Shown here piece by piece: positions 5,325 through 23,940 of a stretch of DNA of 56,446 nucleotides. Location of the stretch: positions 1 to 56,446 of IMG/VR virus record IMGVR_UViG_3300042465_007438; one strand, written 5' to 3'. Positions within the stretch are counted from its first letter, which is position 1. Every line of letters starts with the position of its first letter. Origin of the DNA: a virus (taxonomy: Duplodnaviria > Caudoviricetes). The notes below the pieces were generated by a model that was not told where the DNA came from, searched no databases, and worked only from the letters and a program-made list of their open reading frames with translations. The translations under genes were made by a program, and so were the position numbers.

Positions 5325-7478
5325 TTATTTATTCTTTGTGAATGGAGAACCTAATTTTTTTTGTTGCATCATAGGTCTGGAACTAAACTGGCTGGGTAGT
5401 TTTACTAACCGACTGGGTTTGTTTGGTTCTTCGTACCCGTGCCTGACTGACTGTACCATATGTTTATTATGATAACTTTCTGCTGCTAACAGAGCTAGCA
5501 TAAAAGACACCAATGAGTCTGTGTTAAGTTTAGGAGTCCATCTTAGCATCTCTTGTAAAAGTCGTCTGTCTTTTATTCGAGAAACACCGTAAATAGTTTT
5601 TGATTCTCCTGTCTCTAGGTCAAACTCATCTGCAATAGGTTCTTCGCAATATAACACTGTTTTTTCCAATGCTCTTTTTTTAAACTCACCTTCCATCCTT
5701 ACTCCAATTTCATCTCTGATTGTAGAGTTAGGCATCATTTCAGTTACTGCAGTTAGTTCTCTTCTTCTAAATAAAAGTCTGGATTTACCTTTTCGTATAA
5801 CCCATTCTATAAAATCTTTAACGTTAGATTCCACTGCTACTCTGGCATTATAAAACTCTATTAAGTCTAAACATACCTGATAAGTCTCAGTTGCTTTTTT
5901 ATGTCGTCCTACATAAGAAGCTACAGGGTAGCCTTGAAGGACTTGTCCGTTTCTTTCATGAGTACACATATATATCGTGATGGCCATAAGCGACTTTGAA
6001 GTCTCTGTATCTAAGTTATAAATAGGGTCAACTCCTGCTACGTAAAGCCCAAAGGGAGGCGCATCTACAGGGAACTCGTAAATAATTACAGCTCCTCTGT
6101 TATCTTTCTTAGGATCAGGTTTAATTGAGTAAACAGGAGGATCGGTAGAGAATTTATGATACACCTTTCCTTTTGAATCCCTGTGTAATTCTACTACAAT
6201 GTCTTTATCTTTTAGGAGTTTTAGTTGCTGCTCCTTAAGTAGCTGGGTAGGAAAGATGTTATTCTCCCTTTGATCAAAAGCATCTTGTACTGTTCTGGGA
6301 TGTTGAGACTTCCACAACTTGTAAGAAGACTCATCTTTTTCTTTTTGTCTTTCTTCTTCTAAAGCAAGAAAGTCCAACGCCTGTTGAATGTTAGAATTAC
6401 CGTTTATGTCATAGCATTTAACTACCTGCCCTGAGTGCTCATCTTTATAAATGTAGTTCCACTCATCAGGAAAAAAGAATCCTATATCATCTCCAGAGCC
6501 TGAGAACACATCTTTTACTGATTTAATAGAATAAGCTTTAGGATTAAGAATGAACTCCTGAAGATCTTCTGCATCTTTAAGTTCCCCTACTGCTCCAGCC
6601 GCTACAAACATCCCTGTCTTTACACCGCCCAGTTTAATGTTCGGGTCGACATACCCTTTTACCTTTTTAAGATTTTGGTAAATACCCGCTTCTGTAGCGT
6701 ATATTTCTAACGCCGCACCTCCTACCGCCTTGGAAAAGTTCTTTTTAGTAGTAGCTCCTTTGATTCTACTTTTGTTACCTTTGGTTACTTTCTTCTTATC
6801 TAAAGATCCTATTGTCACCTCGATCTTTTGTTCCCAGTTTAATGTTTCATCAGGAGAAAAAGGTCTGTACCAGCCTGTATGTTCATTTAAATGATCTCGG
6901 TAATTCTGAAGAATACCCCATTCTCCTAAGACATACTCTTCTTCAAAGCCTACTATTTTAAGAGTTGCTCTTGTCCCAAACCACACTCTTCTTAACAGTC
7001 GAGCTACGTGATATAGACTTATACCTTTTTGGCGAGCTTTTACGCACGCTCCATCTATATCTTCTAACCAAGCTAATTGATAGTATAAATCGTAATGATA
7101 GTGACCATCCCAAATCTCAGGGAAGTCAGTGTTCATTTTAACTTTGTCAAAAATAGGAGTGTAGTTCCAAAACCAATAAAGATCCGGACTTATCCAGTAG
7201 TCATCTATAATAATTCCCTGAGTACACTTTCGCCTTTCGATCAACCAAAACTCTTTGTACTCCTTAGACTTAGGATGATAGTCAGTATACCTTTTATCTT
7301 TTTGAAACTTTTTAGCAGCCTGAATCCAATGTTCCGTATTTTTAAAATTGTACTTTCCTGGAAACTTAAAGCACGACTTTACAAAATTGTACCAATCAGG
7401 ATAAGTATCAAATGTCCTTTTAGACCACTCTTTAGTGCTGGTATTAAACGATAAAATAGTAAAAGGTTGAAATATCAT
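5325..7478 (-). CDS. terL: terminase large subunit
   Basis: KARQKGIS Walker A-like motif, YATEAG Walker B, YVAGVDP and VAVESN nuclease motifs. Confidence 0.92.
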   Translation of the reverse strand: MIFQPFTILSFNTSTKEWSKRTFDTYPDWYNFVKSCFKFPGKYNFKNTEHWIQAAKKFQKDKRYTDYHPKSKEYKEFWLIERRKCTQGIIIDDYWISPDLYWFWNYTPIFDKVKMNTDFPEIWDGHYHYDLYYQLAWLEDIDGACVKARQKGISLYHVARLLRRVWFGTRATLKIVGFEEEYVLGEWGILQNYRDHLNEHTGWYRPFSPDETLNWEQKIEVTIGSLDKKKVTKGNKSRIKGATTKKNFSKAVGGAALEIYATEAGIYQNLKKVKGYVDPNIKLGGVKTGMFVAAGAVGELKDAEDLQEFILNPKAYSIKSVKDVFSGSGDDIGFFFPDEWNYIYKDEHSGQVVKCYDINGNSNIQQALDFLALEEERQKEKDESSYKLWKSQHPRTVQDAFDQRENNIFPTQLLKEQQLKLLKDKDIVVELHRDSKGKVYHKFSTDPPVYSIKPDPKKDNRGAVIIYEFPVDAPPFGLYVAGVDPIYNLDTETSKSLMAITIYMCTHERNGQVLQGYPVASYVGRHKKATETYQVCLDLIEFYNARVAVESNVKDFIEWVIRKGKSRLLFRRRELTAVTEMMPNSTIRDEIGVRMEGEFKKRALEKTVLYCEEPIADEFDLETGESKTIYGVSRIKDRRLLQEMLRWTPKLNTDSLVSFMLALLAAESYHNKHMVQSVRHGYEEPNKPSRLVKLPSQFSSRPMMQQKKLGSPFTKNK

Positions 7479-8008: not shown

Positions 8009-8405
8009 AGAATTGTAATACCAAGTGTTTTAAGAATATTAAACCATTCGTCTTGCTCTACTTTAATGTTAATAGTCTCTGCCTGTCCTGATGAAACACT
8101 GACAATAGAAGCAGATACAATATTTACATCATGCGAATTATCTTTCTCAAACACCCAATCTCGAATTACTGTGTCAGTCATGTTCATATAGACTTTCATG
8201 TAACTGGTATTTTCTCCCGGATGTTTTGGTTCAGTAGGCTTTGGTTCTCCTCGTAGAAGATTTATGTCTTGAGAATCCTCCCACATTTTCAAATCATCCT
8301 GATATTCTTCCAGATCTTGCTGGTATTTTTGAATTTCTTCTGCAGTAATTTTTGCAGTCAATATTTCTAACTCCATGAAAACATCCTCGCATACTTTTTT
8401 ACTCA
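8005..8405 (-). CDS. hypothetical protein
   Basis: ORF-track frame 8005..8475; the internal start MSKKV near the nuclease stop is more plausible (start approximate). Confidence 0.55.
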
Positions 8406-10129
8406 TTATTTTGTTTTTTAAACCAGTTAAGAATAGTATGAGCTTCCTTCTTTTTGTACTCGATAGGATACTCAATTACATTGACACACTCATTGTTCTC
8501 ATTTAGTATTGCGTGGTATATTTTAAGTTCCTTACAAGTAAATCCAAACTGCTCAAGCATATAAGCATACAAAGAAAGCTGAAGAGTGTAGTGCATTCCC
8601 GAGCAGTCTTCTAAATGCTGAACTGGAGAATTCATCATTACAGGCTTTCTCTCTTTAGAGATCTTGTCAAATCGCTTAAAAGACTCAAATTTAAGCTCTT
8701 GGTTTGTATTATGAGTAGGTAGATAATTTCTAGTAACTAAATAAGTATGCAGCGGGCTTTCTACAGCTATACAAATTGTAGGAATCGTATCTACTTTGTC
8801 AATTGACTTTATATACCTATGTTTTGACTTATAGAAACTAACATCAACCATTAGGGAATCATAGTCCTCATTCCTAGTTAAAAAGGGGGATTCTTTCATT
8901 GTAAAGGAAATACTAAAAGCTTCTATATTACTTTTACCAAATCCGGACGTTTTATATGGCATAACTGTAGGTTTTTCTCCCAAGCTAAACAAGATACTAC
9001 ACAACGCTTCTACCTGCCATTTTTTTGTAGTGTTCATAACACATCTTTTTCTAGTACGATTAAACGAACCATCTGTGTCCATAAATCCTCTCAGTAAATC
9101 CAGTCTCTGTTGTCTAGAACCCTTCAAGTACATATCCGGAAGATGTTTATTGTTTAATACACCCATCTCCTTTAGTTTGGTACGAAGCCCTATAATGGTT
9201 TTTATTTGAGCTTTACCACTTCCTCCTTGGGAAATATCGTTTCCTAATATGTAACCTCTAATTTCAATTTCTTTCCATAATTTACTATTCATGTTTGTAA
9301 TAGAGCCTGATGCTGCTGCCCCATCTCCTAACCAGCATCCGAATACATACGGATCTATTGGGAGATCCGCTTCAGGTAAATTAAGTGCTGCATTTTTGAT
9401 TGTCAACTTTTTTCCTTTACAGTCATAGTGTTCCATTATTTCTTTAGTTGTCATCACTTTCTCCACAGGTACCTTTTTATAGGTATAACTTGTAATCAAC
9501 CATTTGTGGTCTTCATCGCAAACTACTTCTTCATTTGTATCAAATTTGATTTTATAGCAAGGGTTATAATGTACATCAGATTTTGCTTTGACTTTTGTCA
9601 AACATCCTTGCCCATCAAATATTTCATCTCCTACTACTAAATCTTTGATAAGTTTAAATCCTACCTTAGTAGGTACTTCAGTATCTAAGGGGAATCCTTT
9701 GTAATCTCCTAAAAAGAAAGTCTTATCTTCATAAATCTCTACGATGTCTGCAGTTCCTACCGCATTATGAAGTAAGGAATATACGATTAGTTCAGGATAA
9801 ACACCCGGAGTAAGAGACTTGAGATCAAATGATTGTTTAAGTCCATTCTCTCTTACAATAGCAGGAACAGCTCCTTTTTTAGCCAAAGCTTCTTTTTCTT
9901 TTTCAAGGTGAAAAGCAGTCCCGCGCTCCTGACTTTTAATCTTCTTATCTTCCCACTCTTTTAAGATCTCTTCTTTGGTTATTCCTCTTTCTTTAGCTTT
10001 CTTTTCCGCCCAATAGTCAGCATCGAATTTCTCTTTAAGTAAAGAGATAATCGTACTTACTGAAGTAAGCTTCATATCAGGAGCAGATTCTACTGTGTAC
10101 TTGTGTACCTCTTCGTTAAATAAGATCAT
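8399..10129 (-). CDS. PD-(D/E)xK nuclease interrupted by an intein (~246 aa after splicing)
   Basis: SVSTII, RGTAFH, GTADIV..GDYK|T..YTLQLSLYAYML motifs; start 10129 makes an ATGA overlap with the upstream gene. Confidence 0.85.
   Translation of the reverse strand: MILFNEEVHKYTVESAPDMKLTSVSTIISLLKEKFDADYWAEKKAKERGITKEEILKEWEDKKIKSQERGTAFHLEKEKEALAKKGAVPAIVRENGLKQSFDLKSLTPGVYPELIVYSLLHNAVGTADIVEIYEDKTFFLGDYKGFPLDTEVPTKVGFKLIKDLVVGDEIFDGQGCLTKVKAKSDVHYNPCYKIKFDTNEEVVCDEDHKWLITSYTYKKVPVEKVMTTKEIMEHYDCKGKKLTIKNAALNLPEADLPIDPYVFGCWLGDGAAASGSITNMNSKLWKEIEIRGYILGNDISQGGSGKAQIKTIIGLRTKLKEMGVLNNKHLPDMYLKGSRQQRLDLLRGFMDTDGSFNRTRKRCVMNTTKKWQVEALCSILFSLGEKPTVMPYKTSGFGKSNIEAFSISFTMKESPFLTRNEDYDSLMVDVSFYKSKHRYIKSIDKVDTIPTICIAVESPLHTYLVTRNYLPTHNTNQELKFESFKRFDKISKERKPVMMNSPVQHLEDCSGMHYTLQLSLYAYMLEQFGFTCKELKIYHAILNENNECVNVIEYPIEYKKKEAHTILNWFKKQNNE
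8708..9697 (-). mobile_element. class 3-type intein (330 aa) with LAGLIDADG homing endonuclease
   Basis: Starts GFPLDTEVPT, block B DEDHKW, LAGLIDADG blocks FGCWLGDG and LRGFMDTDG, block F TICIAV, ends PTHN|T; removal restores DYK-T. Confidence 0.88.
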
Positions 10130-10335
10130 AGAGTCAAAGCTTTTACTGCAAACATACAAGCTACTTCAAGATTATACTTTGCATCTTCAACCCATCGAGT
10201 TGAGTCATCGTGTTTATTATGTGTGGAAATTGCGTTTACCTGATCGTAAAGATCAGCAAACATTTGCTTGATTTTGGTAACCTCTTCATTGGGAGAGAAA
10301 TCTACCCGCATTGCTTTTTGTCCTAAAGTCTGCAT
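10126..10335 (-). CDS. Acb2/Tad1-like helical hairpin protein (putative signal-nucleotide sponge)
   Basis: 69 aa; TLGQKAMRVDFSP...IKQMFADLYD...RWVEDAKYNLEVACMFAVKAL matches the family pattern ending in E-x-A-x-M-W/F-A-V-K-A. Confidence 0.6.
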   Translation of the reverse strand: MQTLGQKAMRVDFSPNEEVTKIKQMFADLYDQVNAISTHNKHDDSTRWVEDAKYNLEVACMFAVKALTL

Positions 10336-15965: not shown

Positions 15966-16038
15966 GATCCCGTAGCTCAAAGGATAGAGCACCTGCCTTC
16001 TAAGCAGGCGGTTACAGGTTCGAGTCCTGTCGGGATTA
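15966..16038 (+). tRNA. tRNA-Arg(TCT)
   Basis: gatcccg/cgggatt acceptor, cctgc-cttctaa-gcagg anticodon arm, GGTTCGAGTCC T arm. Confidence 0.93.
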
Positions 16039-16134
16039 CAAAAAAACACATCACTGCATTGGTGTTGTTTTTTATTTTACTTACTGATGCAGCAGAAAAC
16101 AAACACATACTGGCTCTGTATAAACCAGGTTGAT

Positions 16135-16815
16135 ATGAACAAAATATCATATTCTTTTCCTGTAAGTGGCAACGACGTTGCCGAACTTCTTTCACAAAAA
16201 CACCGCACTCCCAGCGGTGGAGAATTTAATAACCCCAAATCCTGGATCTGGGAAATCCGGGACAAATACTGCAAAGGAAAATTTGGCCTAGGAAAGGCCA
16301 ACTTCCGCATTTTTGCGGATAAATTAGTATTTGTAAACGCAGCCCAGAGTTACGCTTGGGTATGCGTATTCACCCAAGAATTTGCGGCAAAAAGAAAGGC
16401 AATCGCCGATTCTATTGCAGAAAAAAACGCCGCTGCTGAAGCAGAGGTACTTTCTTTCACCGGTGTTGCCGTCATTACGACGGGACACGAAACGTGGTCA
16501 CCCAGTGGCCGCGAGGAGTGGAAGAAAAAAGAAATAGTAAAATTTGAGAACGGAATTCCAGTAGAAATACTGGAATCCGATCACTACTCTTCCGAGTATA
16601 CCTCGGGAGACAGAGCGTACGGTCTAGAACCGTACGCAGAAGGGAAAGATTTTATGTTGACCGAAGATGCTTGGGAAACTTTAGTTTCCTGGTATCAGCC
16701 GACATTAGTAATCAAAGTCTTAACCCGTGACAACGGGCAGTATGAAGAACATGATTACCGTTTAAACGGGGAGTACGTGCCCTCTCGGGCATGTATGGAA
16801 CTGATTAAGCGGTAA
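16135..16815 (+). CDS. hypothetical protein
   Basis: Long ORF, likely start MNKISY; hairpin 16821-16848 downstream. Confidence 0.7.
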   Translation: MNKISYSFPVSGNDVAELLSQKHRTPSGGEFNNPKSWIWEIRDKYCKGKFGLGKANFRIFADKLVFVNAAQSYAWVCVFTQEFAAKRKAIADSIAEKNAAAEAEVLSFTGVAVITTGHETWSPSGREEWKKKEIVKFENGIPVEILESDHYSSEYTSGDRAYGLEPYAEGKDFMLTEDAWETLVSWYQPTLVIKVLTRDNGQYEEHDYRLNGEYVPSRACMELIKR

Positions 16816-16933
16816 TAAAAAACCTTGCACAAGTGATTGTGCAAGGTTGGTTCACGAACGGCTGAAAAATCCATGCCGTGTACTGTAAGTATGTGTGAAA
16901 TGGTAATATTATTTAACATTAAATTATTTACGC

Positions 16934-17375
16934 ATGATTGTAGTGCATATTTCCTTGCTCACGAACAATTACTATCACGTATTCAGCAGCAAAAAGGATG
17001 CTGTTGAATATGCGGAACTGTGTGAGTTAAACTACCAAGACGAATATGTCGTGGTAGTTGATACTACCACACAAGAACAAGTGTATTACCGGGATTATAC
17101 CGATAATGATGAGGAACCATCCTATGAGTAGTGATTGCACACGGGTCGAGTACGTGGTAAAAATCACCGCTATAACCTCGGAAGAGGATACTAGCGGGGG
17201 TTACATCACGCAGCACCGTCAGGTAGGCGGCATCATCATCGATTCGCAGTGGGCTGAAAAGTTCACTGGTAAAGTCGGTGATGAAGTCAAATGGTGTGAA
17301 TGGATCGAAAGCGAAGGTGTCTACGGGCACCTTATCGTAACAGGTCTGGGCACTATTGTTTACGTTAATGCGTAG
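16934..17375 (+). CDS. two small overlapping hypothetical genes (16934-17131 and ~17123-17375)
   Basis: ORF track; short stop/start overlap. Confidence 0.55.
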
Positions 17376-17620
17376 ACACTACCAGTGGAGGGCATACTAA
17401 GTTGCTCAGGGATATAAAGTCAGAAGACTTCCCGCACGATAAAAGGTGTGAATAAACAAGGTGAGAATCTTTGTAATGGAAGGGAGTGGTTTCTGTTTTA
17501 TAAACAGAAATTCCTACGCTCTAAGCTTGAGCCACGTCGAAAGGCGGATGAAATGTAACTGAAGTCCAGCAGAGAATGGTATAAGGTTGCTTTTTTTAAA
17601 CAATTTAAATTTAATTTATT

Positions 17621-17812
17621 ATGGAATATCCAATTCAATTCTTCCCTACAGGATTTGACCGCATGTCCATCGAAGCCACCATGGAAGGGTGGCAGTTGTC
17701 CATTAATTGGACAGAGTTTGAGGAAGATGGACATAGTCACTGTTACGCAGAATATCTCGTAACAAAAGACAAGGCAGTGTTAATCAAAGGAGATTTTTAT
17801 CCCTTTGATTAA
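17621..17812 (+). CDS. hypothetical protein
   Basis: 63 aa with AT-rich leader. Confidence 0.55.
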   Translation: MEYPIQFFPTGFDRMSIEATMEGWQLSINWTEFEEDGHSHCYAEYLVTKDKAVLIKGDFYPFD

Positions 17813-17871
17813 TAAGATAAGGCAGTCGTAAGATAGCTTCCTATTCTTTTATCATTAATTTATAATATTAT

Positions 17872-18495
17872 ATGATTGACATGATCTCAGTAGAAGGAGG
17901 TACTTTCCTTTTAGGAAAAGTAACTCCTATAGAACTCTCCGATTTCAAAATCGGAAAGTACCCCGTCACCCAAGCGCAGTGGCGGGAAGTGATGGGTAGT
18001 AATCCGTCGTGGTTTAAAAACTGCGATAATTGTCCCGTAGAAGACGTATCCTGGAACGATATTCAGGACTTCCTGAAAAAACTCAACGACCTCACCGGTA
18101 AAACCTACCGCCTGCCTACGGAAGCCGAATGGGAATACGCTGCACAAGGCGGAAATTATAGCCTTGGCTATAAATATGCCGGAAGTAACAACTTGCAAAA
18201 AGTAGGTTGGTACTTAGGCAACTCTGGCGGCAAAACCCACCCGGTAGGCCGGAAAAAACCCAACGAACTGGGGTTGTACGATATGAGCGGGAACGTATGG
18301 GAGTGGTGCTGGGATTGGTACGGGGATTATCCGCCGGATGCAAAGAAGGATTACGCCGGGCCGGAAAAGGGCTCTGGCCGCGTGATTCGCGGCGGCGGCT
18401 GGCTCCACAGCGCCAAGTTCTGCCGCGCCGCTAATCGCTACAGCAACACGCCGTCGCTTCGCGACTATGACGTCGGCTTCCGGTTAGCAATGTAA
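17872..18495 (+). CDS. FGE-sulfatase (CLec-fold) protein, DGR target 1
   Basis: GKYPVTQAQW, PVEDVSW, YRLPTEAEWEYAA, PNELGLYDMSGNVWEW, RVIRGGGW...VGFRL. Confidence 0.92.
   Translation: MIDMISVEGGTFLLGKVTPIELSDFKIGKYPVTQAQWREVMGSNPSWFKNCDNCPVEDVSWNDIQDFLKKLNDLTGKTYRLPTEAEWEYAAQGGNYSLGYKYAGSNNLQKVGWYLGNSGGKTHPVGRKKPNELGLYDMSGNVWEWCWDWYGDYPPDAKKDYAGPEKGSGRVIRGGGWLHSAKFCRAANRYSNTPSLRDYDVGFRLAM
18370..18482 (+). repeat. DGR-type variable region VR1
   Basis: 113 bp, ungapped match to 21792-21904 with 20 mismatches, none at codon position 3; 68% GC. Confidence 0.85.
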
Positions 18496-18498
18496 AAA

Positions 18499-18532
18499 AT
18501 GCCTGTCTCAGCAAAAGAGCTGGGACAGGCAT
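18499..18532 (+). promoter_or_regulatory. hairpin just after VR1 (DGR homing hairpin or terminator)
   Basis: atgcctgtctcagc-aaaaga-gctgggacaggcat, 14-bp stem with one G-T pair and no strong T tract. Confidence 0.55.
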
Positions 18533-18631
18533 ATATTTATGCAAATATAAGGTTCAAACTCCTTGTAAAACATATGCAGATGACACTAATGTGTAATGCA
18601 GATATTTGCAAAAAACTTTACTTAACATCCT

Positions 18632-19769
18632 ATGGATAACTTAGTAACAACCGATTACACGAACTCCAAAACTCCTTATCGGGTTCGGTTAATGGAGGAA
18701 CTTAACCCCCTTCATAGCTGGAGATTCGAAACCGAAGAGGAATGCCTAGTGGCGATTTCTCTTTGGCTTGCTACTCCTGCAGAAGCAAGAGAAGTCACTC
18801 ATTTTTATCATACGTTTAAAAACGTATTGAGAATGATAGGCTGCAATACTAGTTGGAGCCATTAAAAAAATAAGTTGTAGGTGTATATACTTAAACCTTC
18901 ATTTTTTTCACATAAAATAAAAAAATCATGCGAATTGAACCATCACAAAGACTTGGGTTTTCCGAGTTTGCACAACACGCCTGCAATATGGCAAAAGAAA
19001 AACAAGTCTCAATAGAGTTTGATTGGAGTGGGATTGAATACGTTATTCCTCCAGGTACTCCATTTAAAGTTTTTCTAAAAAGAGCAACTGAGCTCCAGCA
19101 AGAAAGAATTAGAGAAAGGGAAACTTCTTTAGAAGGAATTAAATACAAAGAAGAACAAAGGAAAAAAGAAGAAGAGAGAAGACAACGATACTTAAACCTA
19201 ATGTGTGAGTTTCCAGATCTAGAAAATCTAGAAGAAACTCTAGACTGGTGCTATGAGATATTTAAAACGGGAAATTATTCTCGTAATTCCCGCATTTTAA
19301 ATGTATTCATAGCGTATTCATTAATTCCAGGAATGGAATTAGTATTTGATGATAGCAGTAAAGAAAGTTATGCTAAAATATTAATAGGAACCTTTCTAAC
19401 CGGCGTTGAAAACGGAGCAATACCAGAAGCGTTTCATCGCTTTTACAAGGATTTTAAAACAACATTTGCAAAATGAGCAACCTATATTGGAAAACCCAAA
19501 CAGGGCAACTTGTTTCCGTCGATGATATGACGGAAGATCACTTAAGGAATACCTTAAAGTGGATTATCAAAAATAATCCACATTTCTGTGCTGATTGTGG
19601 GTACATTGTACCTCCAACTTCAGTACATACAGAAAGGTGTCAACGAGTTGCAAAAAAGAAAATGGCTAAAGGTGCCACTAAATTTCGTCTCAACGGGGAC
19701 ATAGCACAGTCGTTTAACGACACTATGGAACAAGTTGAACAGGCGGAAGAAGCAAACTGGAATTACTAA
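18632..19769 (+). CDS. three hypothetical genes (18632-18865, 18928-19476, 19473-19769)
   Basis: Co-oriented ORFs with AT-rich leaders; the third has a CxxC..H..C motif. Confidence 0.6.
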
Positions 19770-20004
19770 AAAAAACTGACCGGATTCGGTATTTAAGTTC
19801 GGCTCCTGTTTCGGAGTAAGAAACACATGATATTTCATTATGTGGTATTCTATTTACCTTGGGACTGTTAATGACATTGATCTATTTCAATGGATTAAGA
19901 TTAGTCTTAACTGATTTACATTACCCTTACCAGTCGGGGTTGGATAAAGAGAGAGACTGGTATTTTATTTTCAATTAAATTTTCATTACTAAATTTTCAA
20001 AAAA

Positions 20005-20820
20005 ATGGTACAAGGACAAGAAACTGTAGTTAAAGACCTTACCCGTCTTATGACTATTTTTAAAAAATCAAATGCGGCTATACGCCCACACTTTATTTTG
20101 ACCGGTCCTTCTGGATCGGGAAAAAGTTTCACGATTAGCACTTTGTGTAGCACTCTAGATCTCCCTTTTGTGGAAATAAACGGGGCTCAGTTAACTAAGG
20201 AAGGAACATCAGGAAACAGTGTTTCTAAAGCGCTCGCCCCCTTAGTAAATATGAGTGCAAAACCGTGTGTCTGTTTTGTAGACGAGTTTGACAAACTGTT
20301 TATCAGTGGAAACTCCAACTCTGACTTGGCTCACGAAAGTACCAATGGAGTACAAAATGAATTCCTCAAGGTACTTGAATCTGATGAAGCAACTGTATAT
20401 GGAGATTACGGAAAATACATAAATGTTTCTGTAAAAAACGTATTGTTTGTTTTTGCAGGAGCATTCAACGGCCAGCCTGAAATTGGAATAGATGAACTTC
20501 GTAAATTCGGAATCAAAACTGAATTTATTGGACGAGTTGGTCTGGTTTACAATGTGCAACCTTTGACCTTAGATACGTTGTATTCTATTTTTGAATCGTC
20601 TACGCTTTTCAAAAATTATGTACAGCTAATGGCTAATGTCGATCTTGAAAAAGCAAAGGATGAAATCAAGGTTCAAATACAAAAGAACTTTGAAAATAAT
20701 ACCTTGGGAGCGAGGATGATTACGACTTTAATTCATCAGTATTTTATTAAAGGCGGCTTTAAGGACGACGAAGTAAAACACATTACATTTCAAGAAAAAT
20801 TGAATTTTGAAACTATTTAA
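20005..20820 (+). CDS. ClpX-like AAA+ ATPase (minimal)
   Basis: GPSGSGKS, FVDEFDK, GVQNEFLKVLE, LFVFAGAF, EFIGR, LGARMI. Confidence 0.85.
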   Translation: MVQGQETVVKDLTRLMTIFKKSNAAIRPHFILTGPSGSGKSFTISTLCSTLDLPFVEINGAQLTKEGTSGNSVSKALAPLVNMSAKPCVCFVDEFDKLFISGNSNSDLAHESTNGVQNEFLKVLESDEATVYGDYGKYINVSVKNVLFVFAGAFNGQPEIGIDELRKFGIKTEFIGRVGLVYNVQPLTLDTLYSIFESSTLFKNYVQLMANVDLEKAKDEIKVQIQKNFENNTLGARMITTLIHQYFIKGGFKDDEVKHITFQEKLNFETI

Positions 20821-21024
20821 ATGATGAAAAAAGATTTATCATTACCATTGCTAGGATTTACAATTCTAGCAATTTGCTTACTCCTCAGCCTTGTATCTTG
20901 TCGTAGTTATTATGCAGGATATGGTAAAGGACAAGCAAAGCACCGGAAGTGCGGCCAGAGGAATACAAACAGCCGTATTTTTGGGGCAATCCAGACAGAT
21001 ACGCTGTGCATATCAAAGCCGTAA
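20821..21024 (+). CDS. small lipoprotein-like protein
   Basis: Hydrophobic N-terminus ending LVS-C. Confidence 0.5.
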   Translation: MMKKDLSLPLLGFTILAICLLLSLVSCRSYYAGYGKGQAKHRKCGQRNTNSRIFGAIQTDTLCISKP

Positions 21025-21314
21025 AACAAGAAGGCAATTTGAGTTCTCTCTAACCAGTACATATCCGAATCAGTTTTACTGAATAGATGTGGTAAAAAGA
21101 GAGTTACAACAATATCAAAGTGACGCACCTGAAGTGGAGCAATGCGATAAATCCTACAGACTATAAAGTTGAATGTCTGTAGTGGTCACAATGATACCCT
21201 GATGAATAAAATCTAATACCAATGGGTTAAATTGGTTTTTTACACAGTAAAATAAATAAACTCGATATTTTTATTTTTTTAAACTTAACAACATGAAAAA
21301 AAAAATAATAAAAC

Positions 21315-22235
21315 ATGGAAAACAAAAAATTTATTGAAACGGTGCTCATCGAAGGTGGTACATTTTTATTGGGTGGCGAAGTAAATGTTACCGTACCTTC
21401 CTTCGAGATCGGAAAGTATCCCGTAACCCAAAAGCAATGGGTTGAAATAATGGGTACTAATCCTTCTCACTTTTCCGGTGATAGCCTTCCGGTTGAAAAT
21501 GTCAGTTGGGAGGACGTGCAGGCCTTCCTAACAAAACTGAATACCATAGACCCGAATAAAAACTACCGTCTTCCTACCGAAGCAGAATGGGAATATGCAG
21601 CTCGTGGCGGTAATCAATCGCAAGGATATGAATACAGCGGCAGCGATTTTCTGAAAGAAGTAGGTTGGTATTATGAAAATTCCAACGACAAAACCCATCC
21701 TGTCGGTCAGTTAAAACCCAATGAATTGGGATTGTACGACATGAGTGGAAATGTTTGGGAATGGTGCGAAGATCAAAGCGAAGATCAAAACGGCTCTTTC
21801 CGCGTGAATCGCGGCGGCGGCTGGTTCACCTACGCCGAGTTCTGCCGCGCCGCTTATCGCCGCGGCAGCACGCCGGCGCGTCGCTACAATAGCGTCGGCT
21901 TCCGCATTTGTCGTTCTCTTGTTAAAACAATGGAAACAGAGTCAATAACACAGGATTTATTAATAGACGTAAAAAGAGGGATTAAGTTCTTTTTTGAAGA
22001 ACAAAGTTATTCTTCTATTTATGAAGGAATCCGGGTACCTGTACGCGATTTAGGCATATTTGATATAAAACTATTAAGTATAAAGCCTGTAGTAAAAGTT
22101 GAAATTCATCTCGACCGTCCCGAGTTATTGGTTGGTTTTGGAGGATTAAGGCTAACAATGTTAGAAAACTTTCTTTCAAATAGACTTGAAGTACCAGTTA
22201 CTATTGATATCAAAGAGGTTACATTTTGGCCTTAA
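21315..22235 (+). CDS. FGE-sulfatase (CLec-fold) DGR target 2 fused to a type II KH-like domain
   Basis: Same FGE motifs as target 1, then VEIHLDRPELLVGFGG...LEVPVTIDIKEV resembling the ribosomal protein S3 KH domain. Confidence 0.85.
   Translation: MENKKFIETVLIEGGTFLLGGEVNVTVPSFEIGKYPVTQKQWVEIMGTNPSHFSGDSLPVENVSWEDVQAFLTKLNTIDPNKNYRLPTEAEWEYAARGGNQSQGYEYSGSDFLKEVGWYYENSNDKTHPVGQLKPNELGLYDMSGNVWEWCEDQSEDQNGSFRVNRGGGWFTYAEFCRAAYRRGSTPARRYNSVGFRICRSLVKTMETESITQDLLIDVKRGIKFFFEEQSYSSIYEGIRVPVRDLGIFDIKLLSIKPVVKVEIHLDRPELLVGFGGLRLTMLENFLSNRLEVPVTIDIKEVTFWP
21792..21904 (+). repeat. DGR-type variable region VR2
   Basis: Partner of 18370-18482; 70% GC inside an otherwise AT-richer gene. Confidence 0.85.
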
Positions 22236-22386
22236 AAATCCAAAAAACGGAATCGAAGTAATCATCTGGTCACTACCTGAGTAATCAGGATAAATTAACG
22301 AATCCGAAATCCCTATGGGAAGATGGACTTCCAGTAGATTCCCACAGCATTGTTTACACCTTTAACAAGGTTTGGATGCTGTTTAT

Positions 22387-22458
22387 GATCCTGTAATTTA
22401 ATGGATAAAATGCAAATCTTCTAAATTTGTAATGCAGGTTCGATTCCTGTCAGGATCA
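22387..22458 (+). tRNA. tRNA-Arg(TCT), second divergent copy
   Basis: gatcctg/caggatc acceptor, caaat-cttctaa-atttg, GGTTCGATTCC; weak AT-rich D arm. Confidence 0.8.
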
Positions 22459-22472
22459 CAATTAATAAAACT

Positions 22473-22551
22473 GCCCGGGTGGTGAAATGGTAAACACGTC
22501 GATTTTAAGCATCGATCCGTAAGGTTGCAGGTTCGAGTCCTGTTCCGGGTA
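22473..22551 (+). tRNA. tRNA-Leu(TAA)
   Basis: gcccggg/tccgggt acceptor, tcgat-tttaagc-atcga, variable arm, GGTTCGAGTCC. Confidence 0.85.
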
Positions 22552-22611
22552 CATTCATTTACAATGCGGTATTTTATACCGTACTTTTTTTCATTAAAAC
22601 TTTTATATAAA

Positions 22612-23016
22612 ATGCGTACACTTATTATTGTTATTATCACCGCTTCCATTCTGTTGGGCGGTTACTGTTACGAAATCCAACGAGTTGCAAAGTTGGAAGA
22701 ACGTGCTAAGCTCGAATTGGAGTATGACTGCTGGAAAAACACAGCACAAATTCTCCACGACTCACTCCTTGCTACTACAGGCAGGGATGTGCCTGTACCT
22801 GTACTTATTTACTTTAAGGTAAAAACCCTTGAAGAAATACCTGATTCAATTTTAACAAATGAATCTTGTGCCCCTTGCTGGATACTTCATTCTGAAATAA
22901 ACACAGACGATGAAAAAAATCGTCTTTTGGACATCAATGAACTTTATTTTAACGATTATGAACTTGCCGCAGAAGTTCGAGCAAAACGCTCGGTTCAGTC
23001 TGCTAACGTACGTTAG
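22612..23016 (+). CDS. membrane-anchored hypothetical protein
   Basis: Likely start MRTLIIVIITASILLGG. Confidence 0.55.
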   Translation: MRTLIIVIITASILLGGYCYEIQRVAKLEERAKLELEYDCWKNTAQILHDSLLATTGRDVPVPVLIYFKVKTLEEIPDSILTNESCAPCWILHSEINTDDEKNRLLDINELYFNDYELAAEVRAKRSVQSANVR

Positions 23017-23761
23017 CAAAAGCAGTGTGTCAACGATAGCGTTTCATTCCGGAACACTATTGTTGATTGTAGTACTTTCTGGGATTATAGTTGGGCTTTG
23101 CTTAAAACCTAAGCAAGTTATAATTAGAGATACTCAGAAAATAATAGTACAAAAAGAAATCAAAACAACAGACACAGTATATGCCATGAAAGTAATTCCG
23201 GTAAATAAAAGTTGGTTTAGTCCAACTCCGGAAAAAAAACAAAAAATAGAAAACAAAACATCTGGATATACTAAGTATGAAAAAATTATGTGGGCATTGA
23301 AAACAGAAGAATCTTTTAGAAGTAAGGCCTATCCCGATGGGCCTTATTACTCTATTGGATTTGGATTCAACATGAACCCACATAATAAAAGAATGTTACA
23401 GCAACAAGAAAAAACACATTTGATTAAAGGTTGGGGTAAAGGTGCAACGACTACTTGGGAAAACTCTATTGTCTTAACCCAAATTTTTATTGATCACAAC
23501 ATTACCCCTAACTTAAAAAATCAGAAATTAACGCACGATCAGTATGTTGCTAAAGCTCTTAAGTTTTACAATAGCGGGTCTTTTTCTTTAGGATCTTGTT
23601 GCAACGGAAAAAAAGGTTGTGGTAATAGAAACAAAAACATTAGAACCCACCACAACAAACGAAGAAATTTTGAGTCTCGTTTGTACAAGGGAAGGATAAA
23701 TGATGCAACCTGGGACAAAATTAGAAAAAAAGCGATTAGCATCGAAATGAATCATCGCTGA
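22910..23761 (+). CDS. membrane-anchored phage lysozyme (GH24/T4-like)
   Basis: TM segment then LKTEESFRSKAYPDGPYYSIGFGFN (E-x8-D..S-IGFG) and C-terminal RRNFESRLY; start uncertain. Confidence 0.7.
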   Translation: MKKIVFWTSMNFILTIMNLPQKFEQNARFSLLTYVSKSSVSTIAFHSGTLLLIVVLSGIIVGLCLKPKQVIIRDTQKIIVQKEIKTTDTVYAMKVIPVNKSWFSPTPEKKQKIENKTSGYTKYEKIMWALKTEESFRSKAYPDGPYYSIGFGFNMNPHNKRMLQQQEKTHLIKGWGKGATTTWENSIVLTQIFIDHNITPNLKNQKLTHDQYVAKALKFYNSGSFSLGSCCNGKKGCGNRNKNIRTHHNKRRNFESRLYKGRINDATWDKIRKKAISIEMNHR

Positions 23762-23767
23762 TTCATA

Positions 23768-23849
23768 GCGCCCGTGGTGTAATTGGTAGTCACGAGGGAA
23801 AATCCCTTGATCTGAAAAGGTCGTGCAGGTTCGAGTCCTGTCGGGCGCA
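23768..23849 (+). tRNA. Leu-type tRNA-like gene lacking an anticodon
   Basis: Perfect gcgcccg/cgggcgc acceptor, D arm, variable arm and T arm; anticodon arm is aggga-aaa-tccct (3-nt loop). Confidence 0.75.
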
Positions 23850-23940
23850 CTAAATTAAAACTTTTATATTATGATGAATGAAGTAAACTTAACAATCCTA
23901 ATACTATTTTCTCTTATTTTCATTTATAAAACAAGAAAGT

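What the first reader, a model, noticed from the sequence alone, without database searches (positions are those of the whole stretch)
17872..21904. Two DGR-hypervariable CLec genes with foreign-GC variable regions and no visible RT or template: possible use of a remote or host DGR
Seen: 18370-18482 and 21792-21904 align without gaps over 113 bp. All 20 mismatches (15 codons) are at codon positions 1-2 and none at position 3, while the rest of the two genes differ freely at synonymous sites. Every difference fits adenine-specific mutagenesis of one template, roughly GGC TCT AAC CGC GTG AAT CGC GGC GGC RGC TGG AAC AAC AAC GCC AAG ... GCT AAT CGC AAC AAC AAC ACG CCG ACG AAT CGC AAC AAT AAC ... 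GGC TTC CG. The segments are 68% and 70% GC in a clearly AT-rich phage. Known: DGRs diversify the C-terminal VR of FGE/CLec-fold proteins, and phage DGR targets are typically large virion adhesins close to their RT and TR. Here the targets are short, lack signal peptides, sit in the early region, and I find no TR or RT in 56 kb. Inference: the phage either has a remote multi-target DGR, or receives diversified VRs in trans from a GC-richer host DGR (by retrohoming or recombination with host targets), yielding variable intracellular binders or decoys.
Basis: partly seen in the sequence, partly recalled or inferred. Interest (0 to 1): 0.92.

Follow-up and report, generated by a model that had tools for sequence, protein, structure and literature searches.

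The report
Phage variable-protein genes missing their retroelement
Two small lectin-fold genes in a partial freshwater phage genome carry hypervariable ends of the kind written by a diversity-generating retroelement, and the enzyme and template that write them are simply not on this roughly 40% fragment of the genome.

Summary
Window 18370-18482 and 21792-21904 align ungapped over 113 bp with 20 mismatches: 12 at codon position 1, 8 at position 2, none at position 3. GC is 68% and 70% against 36% for the contig.

Both genes are TvpA-like FGE/C-type-lectin-fold proteins. A ~1%-diverged strain in an independent lake metagenome differs in gene A almost only inside this block. All 13 amino-acid changes fall in residues 169-200, at the same codons. 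These are therefore real, recently diversified DGR variable regions written from one shared template.

No RT, Avd or template repeat lies in the 56 kb. However, the record is a linear fragment, about 40% complete. It maps onto positions 55-123 kb of a complete 142-kb relative, so the whole virion/tail block is missing.

Searches for the template found nothing in IMG/VR, JGI metagenome contigs, GenBank phages or plasmids. Prokaryote genomes gave one chance match.

The likeliest reading is a phage DGR with two non-adjacent targets, a known arrangement. A host or trans DGR is neither supported nor excluded. As a lead, only 3 of 45 FGE-bearing viral records searched carry an RT.

The parts
17872..18495 (+). 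Gene A, 207 aa. Minimal TvpA-like FGE-sulfatase/C-type-lectin-fold variable protein, with no N-terminal hydrophobic leader by eye.
   Evidence: Pfam PF03781 E=2.6e-48. Best solved structure is Treponema denticola variable protein TvpA, 2y3c, E=7.9e-44, versus true FGEs at about 1e-21.
18370..18482 (+). VR-A, the variable region of gene A (residues 167-204). Homology to VR-B starts at 18365.
   Evidence: In run X3 the listed changes put 14 differences in these 113 nt, against 38 in the other 3,771 nt of the same contig piece. Allele P0002 has 13 of 13 amino-acid changes in residues 169-200.
18499..18532 (+). 14-bp-stem hairpin starting 17 nt after VR-A, just past the stop codon. It is either a terminator or a DGR target-site cruciform. 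There is no counterpart after VR-B.
   Evidence: strand folding: dG -17.5 kcal/mol, z=-5.5, and 0 of 200 shuffles fold as well. The region after VR-B gives z=+0.78.
21315..22235 (+). Gene B, 306 aa. A TvpA-like FGE/CLec domain (residues 1-~200) reading on in frame into a ~100-aa extension.
   Evidence: Pfam PF03781 E=9.6e-43, residues 8-199. Protein alignment with gene A.
21792..21904 (+). VR-B, the variable region of gene B. It is internal to the ORF, not C-terminal. Homology to VR-A starts at 21787.
   Evidence: 21840 T>A appears in contigs of runs X3 and X4.
21930..22232 (+). C-terminal extension of gene B, from Met206. Probable type-II KH (nucleic-acid-binding) domain, possibly a separate gene in other strains.
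   Evidence: Atlas structure matches to KH_2 clusters, TM 0.68-0.78 by query. Pfam KH_2 E=0.016, 15.5 bits, below the cut-off of 22. P0004 (101 aa, one residue different) is called as its own ORF in another assembly. No homologues were found in the region search.

Best explanation
Genes A and B are diverged paralogues (98 of 153 aligned residues identical upstream of the VR). They encode minimal TvpA-like C-type-lectin-fold binding proteins.

The last ~113 nt of each lectin domain is a DGR variable region. A reverse transcriptase copies a template repeat into cDNA and misincorporates opposite template adenines. The cDNA then overwrites the VR. This resets every non-adenine position, third codon positions included, to the template sequence. 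It randomises about 26 adenine-templated positions at codon positions 1-2.

Both genes are served by the same template. Diversification happened within the time in which strains diverged by about 1%.

Shown here: the VR signature, the shared backbone, the natural allele variation, the protein fold, and the absence of RT/TR/Avd from this contig.

Inferred: the avd-TR-RT cassette sits on the unassembled ~85 kb of the same ~140-kb phage. That would place it at least 17.9 kb to the left or 34.2 kb to the right of the targets, making this a phage DGR with two non-adjacent, non-tail targets.

Also inferred: the products are soluble variable binders. It is not known whether they act inside the cell (favoured by the lack of a leader, the non-structural neighbourhood and the KH-like fusion) or on the virion.
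For: - VR signature and statistics.
- Third allele in an independent study (run X3). Among the listed changes, 14 lie in VR-A, all at codon position 1-2. Ten of these 14 fall on the 20 A/B mismatch columns (hypergeometric P=2e-6). The other 4 fall in the same codons or on A's.
- Protein P0002 is identical to gene A over residues 1-168 and 201-207, with 13 changes in residues 169-200.
- Fold: PF03781 and TvpA E=7.9e-44.
- Fragment status: completeness 40% and linear; ends cut inside genes; collinear with G012 55.4-122.6 kb of 142 kb. G012 1-55 kb holds co-oriented giant ORFs, one of which matches virion structural protein families.
- Literature: FGE-sulfatase-only targets are the largest DGR target class. 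Phage-associated DGRs have non-adjacent targets mostly within 50 kb, and two have only a target 20 kb away. The avd-TR-brt cassette works in trans (PMC5758913, passages).
- Metagenome DGR surveys cannot see remote targets (PMC8144416, passage).
Against: - No TR-like copy was found outside the window with three patterns in IMG/VR, two in JGI metagenome contigs, or by blastn in GenBank phages and PLSDB plasmids. If the rest of this phage were assembled in those collections, its TR should have matched.
- The complete relatives searched have no RT: 0 of 5 distant ones and 0 of 1 nearer one, G012, which also lacks FGE genes.
- Among viral records with homologous FGE genes, only 3 of the 45 searched have an RT, and 2 of 7 that are >=90% complete. 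A phage-borne RT is therefore not the rule for this gene family.
- The one RT checked in detail (G006) serves its own adjacent TR/VR, not its FGE gene.
- The VR backbone is 78% GC at non-variable columns in a 36% GC phage, whereas the one cis TR seen in an AT-rich phage was 33% GC.
- Runs X1 and X2 carry VRs identical to the window, so turnover is not fast.
Confidence: 0.6

Rival explanations
1. The phage has no RT or TR of its own. Its VRs come from a DGR in another genome (host chromosome, ICE, prophage or co-infecting phage). This could happen by trans retrohoming during infection, or by recombinational capture of already-diversified VR cassettes from homologous genes.
For: - RT is absent from most FGE-bearing viral records: 3 of 45 have one, and 2 of 7 that are >=90% complete.
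- Mosaic recombination is evident in this gene family. The X4 contig joins a B-like body to A's VR and 3' flank. P0005, P0007 and P0016 are chimeras of A-like and B-like halves.
- VRs can be identical or near-identical in diverged bodies: L056/L060 have 42 body differences and 0 in the VR, and L026/L080 have 41 and 1.
- The VR backbone is GC-rich.
- DGR components act in trans experimentally (PMC5758913).
Against: - No TR-like sequence turned up in one representative genome of each of 185,579 prokaryote species, except a 24-nt chance match. None was found in plasmids.
- A 36% GC phage implies a low-GC host, so a host TR would not explain the GC either.
- 60% of the genome is unseen, which is the simpler explanation.
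- Wu et al. argue that targets remote from the DGR are not expected to be inherited with phages.
Confidence: 0.22
2. Relic. The lineage had a DGR that wrote both VRs and then lost it, or it is inactive. The VRs are now static alleles that keep the signature.
For: - X1 (possibly the source sample) and X2 (a different study) have VRs identical to the window.
- In a related-style group of RT-less ~90-kb phages, VRs are identical across the 8 (L034-L043) and 5 (L028-L032) contigs with identical gene bodies.
- G008's two VRs have accumulated 3 third-position differences.
Against: - The window's VR-A and VR-B show zero third-position or non-variable-site drift across 113 nt. No such change appears among the X3 changes listed, although 215 rows of that table were not shown.
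- X3 differs by at least 14 VR changes at only ~1% flank divergence.
- Several X4 contigs carry further VR variants (tables 3 and 5c). This is suggestive only, because VR-A and VR-B reads can cross-map.
Confidence: 0.14
3. Not a DGR at all. Gene conversion between the paralogues, plus strong diversifying selection on contact residues, produced the pattern.
For: Paralogues 3.4 kb apart can convert each other, and mosaicism exists in the family.
Against: - Conversion would also homogenise the variable sites.
- Selection does not explain 0 of 37 third-position differences together with 20 position-1/2 differences.
- It does not explain the 9 transitions to 11 transversions, or A appearing in 17 of 24 variable columns.
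- It does not explain the near-absence of A elsewhere in the VR.
- The closest structural relative is a known DGR variable protein.
Confidence: 0.03

Closest known systems
Treponema denticola DGR and its variable protein TvpA (PDB 2y3c); FGE-sulfatase/CLec1 target 'category b' of Wu et al. 2018 (PMC5758913)
   Same: Same fold and VR placement. TvpA is the best solved-structure match (E=7.9e-44). As with most category-b targets, the protein is an FGE-sulfatase domain with nothing else appended. One template serves several paralogous targets, some of them not adjacent to the RT.
   Different: This case is on a lytic-looking ~140-kb freshwater phage rather than a bacterial chromosome. There is no lipoprotein leader; the alignment begins at TvpA residue 52. 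The RT and TR were not observed. Gene B continues past the VR into a KH-like domain.
Bordetella phage BPP-1 DGR (mtd-avd-TR-brt)
   Same: A phage-borne system with adenine-specific rewriting of a CLec-fold VR at codon positions 1-2. A GC-rich 3' VR end is followed, in gene A, by a hairpin.
   Different: In BPP-1 the target is a tail-fibre tip protein adjacent to the cassette. Here there are two small non-tail targets, at least 17.9 kb (left) or 34.2 kb (right) from any cassette. No IMH/IMH* pair can be defined without the TR, and VR-B has no hairpin.
Phage-associated DGRs with non-adjacent targets (Wu et al. 2018, section 'Non-adjacent target genes', passage read)
   Same: Targets lie tens of kb from the RT within a phage. 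Two cases are reported with only a non-adjacent target, 20 kb away.
   Different: Whether this case falls in that range cannot be said, because the cassette is off-contig. Their Supplementary Table S1, which lists the cases, could not be opened.
Cyanobacterial remote variable proteins (Vallota-Eastman et al. 2020, PMC7517822, passages read)
   Same: CLec paralogues are dispersed away from the DGR, mostly predicted to be cytosolic, and grafted onto other domains.
   Different: Those are cellular genes with N-terminal signalling domains. Here the genes are on a phage, and the extra domain is C-terminal to the VR.

Membership tests
Diversity-generating retroelement (DGR) target | Variable region at the 3' part of a CLec/Ig-fold domain, with substitutions confined to codon positions 1-2 at adenine-templated sites | tested here: met
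   20 of 20 A/B mismatches fall at position 1-2, with 0 of 37 third positions differing. A appears in 17 of 24 variable columns, and only 5 A's occur in the 89 other columns.
Diversity-generating retroelement (DGR) target | Variation between natural populations confined to the VR | tested here: met
   In run X3, 14 listed changes fall in 113 nt, against 38 in 3,771 nt of flank. P0002 has 13 of 13 amino-acid changes in residues 169-200. Runs X1 and X2 are identical to the window.
Diversity-generating retroelement (complete system) | Cognate template repeat with A at the variable positions | tested here: inconclusive
   None in the 56 kb. None in IMG/VR, JGI metagenome contigs, or GenBank phages and plasmids. 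One chance hit in prokaryote genomes. About 60% of the genome is unseen.
Diversity-generating retroelement (complete system) | DGR-clade reverse transcriptase (RVT_1) | tested here: inconclusive
   PF00078 gave 0 candidates in the window at E<=10. The same search found RTs in G006, G010 and G045. The contig is a fragment.
Diversity-generating retroelement (complete system) | Accessory protein (Avd-type four-helix bundle) | tested here: inconclusive
   PF05635 gave no match at E<=10 in the window. The contig is a fragment, and other accessory classes were not searched.
Diversity-generating retroelement (complete system) | IMH at the VR 3' end and a downstream GC-rich inverted repeat | tested here: inconclusive
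   The shared GC-rich 12 nt at the VR 3' end is identical in both genes. A strong hairpin follows VR-A only. IMH/IMH* cannot be defined without the TR.
TvpA-like FGE-sulfatase/CLec1 variable proteins | FGE-sulfatase domain whose C-terminal part is the VR | tested here: met
   PF03781 E=2.6e-48 and 9.6e-43. TvpA E=7.9e-44, with the VR aligned to the TvpA C-terminus. In gene B the ORF continues about 110 aa beyond the VR.
KH_2 domain (gene B extension) | Match to the Pfam KH_2 profile above the gathering score | tested here: not met
   15.5 bits against a cut-off of 22, E=0.016. The structural resemblance, TM 0.68-0.78, is a lead only.

The most novel reading that the evidence does not exclude
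This phage, like most phages that carry small TvpA-like genes, encodes no reverse transcriptase at all. Its variable regions would then be supplied from outside, either by trans retrohoming from a DGR in the host or a co-infecting element, or by recombinational capture from a shared pool of pre-diversified VR cassettes circulating among aquatic phages. The products would be intracellular, early-expressed variable binders (one tethered to a KH nucleic-acid-binding domain) rather than receptor-binding proteins.
Probability: 0.2. Interest if true: 0.8.

Novelty: new member of a known kind. Interest (0 to 1): 0.4.

Why it matters
As it stands, this is a clean natural example of a multi-target DGR acting on small non-tail proteins of a large freshwater phage, with direct evidence of VR turnover between lake populations. 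Such remote-target cases are systematically missed by RT-centred metagenome surveys (PMC8144416).

The wider lead may matter more. TvpA-like genes are common accessory genes of large phages, yet an RT was found in only 3 of the 45 such records searched, and in 2 of 7 near-complete ones. Several groups still show template-type VR variation.

If complete genomes confirm RT-less phages with freshly diversified VRs, that would mean DGR diversity is shared between genomes. It would also open the question of what a phage does with intracellular hypervariable binders, for example recognising changing host defence or takeover targets.

Tried and rejected
- Hit H29 / L001 (GenBank MT836415.1) matched only the conserved body of a generic secreted FGE gene. 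It has no VR similarity and was rejected.
- L082, the single prokaryote-genome pattern hit, is a 24-nt match in a GC-rich Sulfitobacter MAG with no extension. I treat it as chance.
- G006, the record with the closest homologue of gene A, has an RT 56 kb from its FGE gene. That RT has its own adjacent TR/VR (L141 5753-5883 / 5911-6040; 20 of 27 mismatches are T on the template copy). The FGE gene has no second copy in the record. It is not a precedent for a remote target.
- G010 is the same: no TR copy for its FGE gene.
- My A-bias scan of fetched loci at a threshold of 0.8 found nothing. The relaxed scan found only the G006 pair as a clear case. I therefore could not build a sample of cis TRs in AT-rich phages, and the GC comparison rests on one example.
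- tblastn with the two RT ORFs against 79 FGE loci and the window gave no hits. I do not rely on this because the probe may be insensitive, and I replaced it with the profile search.
- Walking off the left end succeeded via L081, reaching G012. G012 lacks both RT and FGE genes.
- Walking off the right end via RNR failed. Of the 80 loci kept, none shares neighbouring genes at high identity, contains VR-like DNA, or gives RT probe hits.
- The region search for gene B's extension found no homologues.
- Literature search for 'orphan' or 'in trans' DGR targets returned nothing relevant in the listing. I did not find a report of RT-less phages with freshly diversified VRs in searches, but three searches do not amount to proof of absence.
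Wu et al.'s Supplementary Table S1, which lists phage DGRs with non-adjacent targets, bears on the novelty claim.
- X4's multiple VR variants and A-to-B joints (tables 3, 5 and 5c) could be real co-existing alleles or cross-mapping of the two VRs and of other organisms' FGE genes at 85% likeness. I use them only as a hint.
- Parts of the laid stretch without cover in X2 or X4 are not interpreted.

Full report
**1. The observation**

The two segments are as described. Window 18370-18482 and 21792-21904 align without gaps, and blastn extends the match to 118 nt (E=2.5e-30 within the 56 kb).

There are 20 mismatches in 15 codons: 12 at codon position 1, 8 at position 2, none at position 3. GC is 68.1% and 69.9%, against 36.1% for the contig.

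The contrast with the rest of the two genes is strong:

| Measure | VR | Upstream gene body | Fisher P |
|---|---|---|---|
| Identical-residue codons that are also identical codons | 21 of 21 | 40 of 89 | 7e-7 |
| Third positions that differ | 0 of 37 | 80 of 153 | 1.3e-10 |

The VR has no A at any third position. Outside the variable columns, only 5 of 89 bases are A. Mismatches are 9 transitions to 11 transversions. This is what adenine-specific rewriting from one template predicts. Gene conversion plus selection does not predict it.

**2. What the genes are**

Gene A (17872-18495, 207 aa) and gene B (21315-22235, 306 aa) both match PF03781 FGE-sulfatase (E=2.6e-48 and 9.6e-43).

The best solved structure for gene A is TvpA, the DGR variable protein of Treponema denticola (2y3c, E=7.9e-44). 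Catalytic formylglycine-generating enzymes score only about 1e-21. The VR aligns with the C-terminal variable part of TvpA. Neither protein has an obvious leader peptide; that is my reading of the sequence, not a tool result.

Gene B does not stop after its VR. It reads on for about 110 residues.
- The extension has no detectable sequence homologues.
- Its Atlas model resembles type-II KH domains, including ~100-aa viral KH proteins (TM 0.68-0.78).
- Pfam KH_2 scores just below threshold (E=0.016).
- In another assembly the same 101 residues are called as a separate ORF (P0004).

The fusion may therefore be strain-specific, or the two parts may be separate genes.

A 14-bp hairpin follows gene A (18499-18532, z=-5.5). 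Nothing comparable follows VR-B.

**3. Evidence from natural populations**

The stretch occurs in several freshwater and lake metagenomes from different studies. I laid contigs of four runs on 16500-23500.

- X1 (possibly the source sample) and X2 (a different study) are identical to the window across both VRs.
- X3 (a different study) has one 4,751-nt contig covering 17151-21034 with 52 differences.
  - Fourteen of the listed differences lie in the 113 nt of VR-A, and 38 lie in the other 3,771 nt. That is 12.4% against 1.0%.
  - All 14 are at codon position 1 or 2.
  - Ten of the 14 fall on the 20 A/B mismatch columns (P=2e-6).
- The table was truncated (215 of 257 rows not shown). The protein P0002 sits on a Logan contig of the same length and gives the whole picture: identical to gene A over residues 1-168 and 201-207, with 13 changes in residues 169-200.
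- X4 holds a more diverged strain with a mosaic gene (a B-like body joined to A's VR and 3' flank). It has no counterpart of the AAA+ ATPase gene and carries several further VR variants. I treat X4 as suggestive only.

**4. Where the RT and template are**

They are not in the window.
- No third copy.
- No RVT_1 candidate at E<=10.
- No Avd-type match.

But the window is the whole record, and that record is a linear IMG/VR fragment with CheckV completeness 40%.
- It is cut inside the major head gene at the left and inside ribonucleotide reductase at the right.
- Through the close relative L081 (portal and terminase 75% identical) I reached G012, a 142-kb relative rated 100% complete.
- Thirty window ORFs map collinearly to G012 55.4-122.6 kb, apart from thymidylate synthase at 131.6 kb.
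- The part with no counterpart in the window is G012 1-55 kb, plus roughly 125-142 kb. G012 1-55 kb is a block of co-oriented giant ORFs of up to 3,512 aa, one of which matches virion structural protein families.

So the module where phage DGRs usually sit is exactly what is missing. Any cassette must be at least 17.9 kb to the left or 34.2 kb to the right of the targets.

**5. Searches for the template elsewhere**

| Pattern | Collection | Result |
|---|---|---|
| 1 (VR core) | IMG/VR | 0 |
| 1 | JGI metagenome contigs | 0 |
| 1 | 185,579 species genomes | 1 hit, a 24-nt chance match in a GC-rich MAG |
| 2 (index 48 left open) | JGI metagenome contigs | 0 |
| 2 | IMG/VR | 0 |
| 3 (5' part of the VR) | IMG/VR | 0 |

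After X3 and X4 showed A at VR index 48 of gene B, I realised pattern 1 could miss the true template. Pattern 2 was the response. The prokaryote scan could not be repeated because of its cap.

blastn of the VR against GenBank phages and PLSDB plasmids found nothing. The template is therefore unlocated. This weighs somewhat against 'it is on the rest of the phage', and equally against 'it is in a sequenced host'.

**6. Context from other phages**

Homologous small FGE genes are frequent in IMG/VR: 164 stretches were confirmed and 79 loci kept.

RT profile searches of their records gave the following.

| Set searched | Records with RT |
|---|---|
| 5 FGE-bearing records | 2 of 5 |
| 40 further FGE-bearing records | 1 of 40 |
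| All FGE-bearing records searched (45 of 79 loci) | 3 of 45 |
| Of those, >=90% complete | 2 of 7 (two sibling proviruses) |
| Distant complete relatives of this phage | 0 of 5 |

The G006 RT serves its own adjacent TR/VR, not the FGE gene.

Several groups nevertheless show VR-type variation.
- G008 has two paralogues whose VR block differs at 11, 9 and 3 sites (codon positions 1, 2, 3), against a body dominated by position-3 differences. It has no third copy and no RT on 79 kb.
- In another group, L070 vs L060 differ by 9, 8 and 1 in the VR, against 15, 4 and 18 in the body.
- L056/L060 and L026/L080 have diverged bodies but identical or near-identical VRs.
- In a group of ~90-kb phages with complete, RT-less genomes, VRs are static within strains across many samples and very different between sub-lineages.
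- The nearest protein relatives of gene A are mosaics of A-like and B-like halves.

This family therefore recombines freely, and phage-borne RTs are rare around it. That is why I keep a substantial probability on supply from outside.

**7. The GC argument**

Part of the GC excess is built into DGR design.
- AAC/AAT codons are randomised at two positions, which raises VR GC above template GC. With A at the 24 variable columns, the inferred template would be 61% GC (69 G or C in 113 bases).
- Adenine avoidance removes A from fixed sites.
- The scaffold residues (R, G, A, P, C, W) use GC-rich codons.

The preference for C over T at synonymous sites (68% C) remains unexplained. It is shared by homologues in other AT-rich phages: 67% in a 30% GC locus and 68% in a 36% GC locus. 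The one cis TR I could examine in an AT-rich phage was 33% GC.

A low-GC host would not explain a GC-rich template either. The composition therefore argues for a horizontally mobile cassette or a functional constraint, not specifically for a host DGR.

**8. Comparison with what is known, and verdict**

What the papers say:
- FGE-sulfatase-only CLec targets are the largest DGR target class.
- Multi-target and non-adjacent targets are documented, including in phage-associated DGRs, mostly within 50 kb of the RT. Two cases have only a target 20 kb away.
- The cassette can act in trans (PMC5758913, passages).
- Remote and mostly cytosolic variable proteins are known in cyanobacteria (PMC7517822, passages).
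- Two-target phage DGRs are described as little documented (PMC10743442, passages).
- The largest metagenome survey states that it cannot detect remote targets (PMC8144416, passage).

The finding is therefore a real and well-supported DGR target pair, and a new member of a known kind. Its headline inference, dependence on a host DGR, rests on a fragmentary contig.

My probabilities:

| Reading | Probability |
|---|---|
| Phage-encoded, off-contig cassette | 0.6 |
| Supply from another genome or by recombination | 0.22 |
| Relic | 0.14 |
| Not a DGR | 0.03 |

Interest is 0.4. It is raised a little by the population evidence, the KH-like fusion, and the census that points to many RT-less phages with TvpA-like genes.

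Noticed in passing
window 21930-22232: Gene B's ~100-aa extension beyond its VR looks like a type-II KH nucleic-acid-binding domain (Atlas structure TM 0.68-0.78; Pfam KH_2 E=0.016, below cut-off). The same 101 aa, with one residue different, is called as a separate ORF in another assembly (P0004). A DGR lectin domain tethered to a KH domain would be unusual.
   Followed up: partly
IMG/VR records of loci L002-L080 (G006-G051): Small TvpA-like FGE genes are common in large phage contigs, but an RVT_1 reverse transcriptase was found in only 3 of the 45 records searched. Among records >=90% complete it was 2 of 7, and those two are sibling proviruses, G010 and G045. 34 further loci were not searched.
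   Followed up: partly
G008 (L144, L146); L056-L070; L026/L080: Other phage groups repeat the signature. G008 has two FGE paralogues with VR-concentrated position-1/2 differences (11/9/3), no RT and no third copy on 79 kb. L070 vs L060 differ by 9/8/1 in the VR against 15/4/18 in the body. L056/L060 and L026/L080 have about 41-42 body differences but 0-1 in the VR, suggesting exchange or homogenisation of VR cassettes.
   Followed up: partly
window 18365-18610 and 21557-21774 (run X4 contig); proteins P0005, P0007, P0016: The gene family is mosaic. An X4 contig joins a gene-B-like body to gene A's VR and 3' flank, and lacks the AAA+ ATPase gene (20005-20820). Database homologues combine A-like and B-like halves.
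   Followed up: partly
window 21766-21791: A tandem 12-nt repeat encoding EDQS/EDQN lies immediately upstream of VR-B. Run X3 shows a 6-nt deletion and further small deletions here (21767-21781), so the 5' VR boundary of gene B is length-polymorphic.
   Followed up: no
window 15966-16039, 22387-22459, 22473-22552, 23768-23850: Four tRNA genes flank the two FGE genes: Arg-TCT twice, Leu-TAA, and a call of Phe with anticodon AAA, which is an unusual anticodon and may be a miscall.
   Followed up: no
window 20005-20820: A ClpX-like AAA+ ATPase gene between the two targets is the only part of the region with DNA-level relatives in GenBank phages (65-72% identity; Tenacibaculum, Chryseobacterium, Vibrio, Proteus and Escherichia phages). 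It is absent from the X4 strain.
   Followed up: no
L141 5753-5883 and 5911-6040 (G006:C1, about 89.7-90.0 kb): A separate, ordinary cis DGR in a 30% GC, 136-kb phage. The TR (33% GC) and VR (45% GC) lie next to an RT. 20 of 27 mismatches are T on the template copy, meaning A on the coding strand. The RT frame carries one in-frame TAG.
   Followed up: partly
window 8399-10159 (- strand): A second ORF with weaker terminase-large-subunit-like PHROG hits, mixed with exonuclease, primase and helicase-loader hits, sits near the clear TerL gene (5325-7478). It is probably a nuclease/ATPase rather than a second terminase.
   Followed up: no
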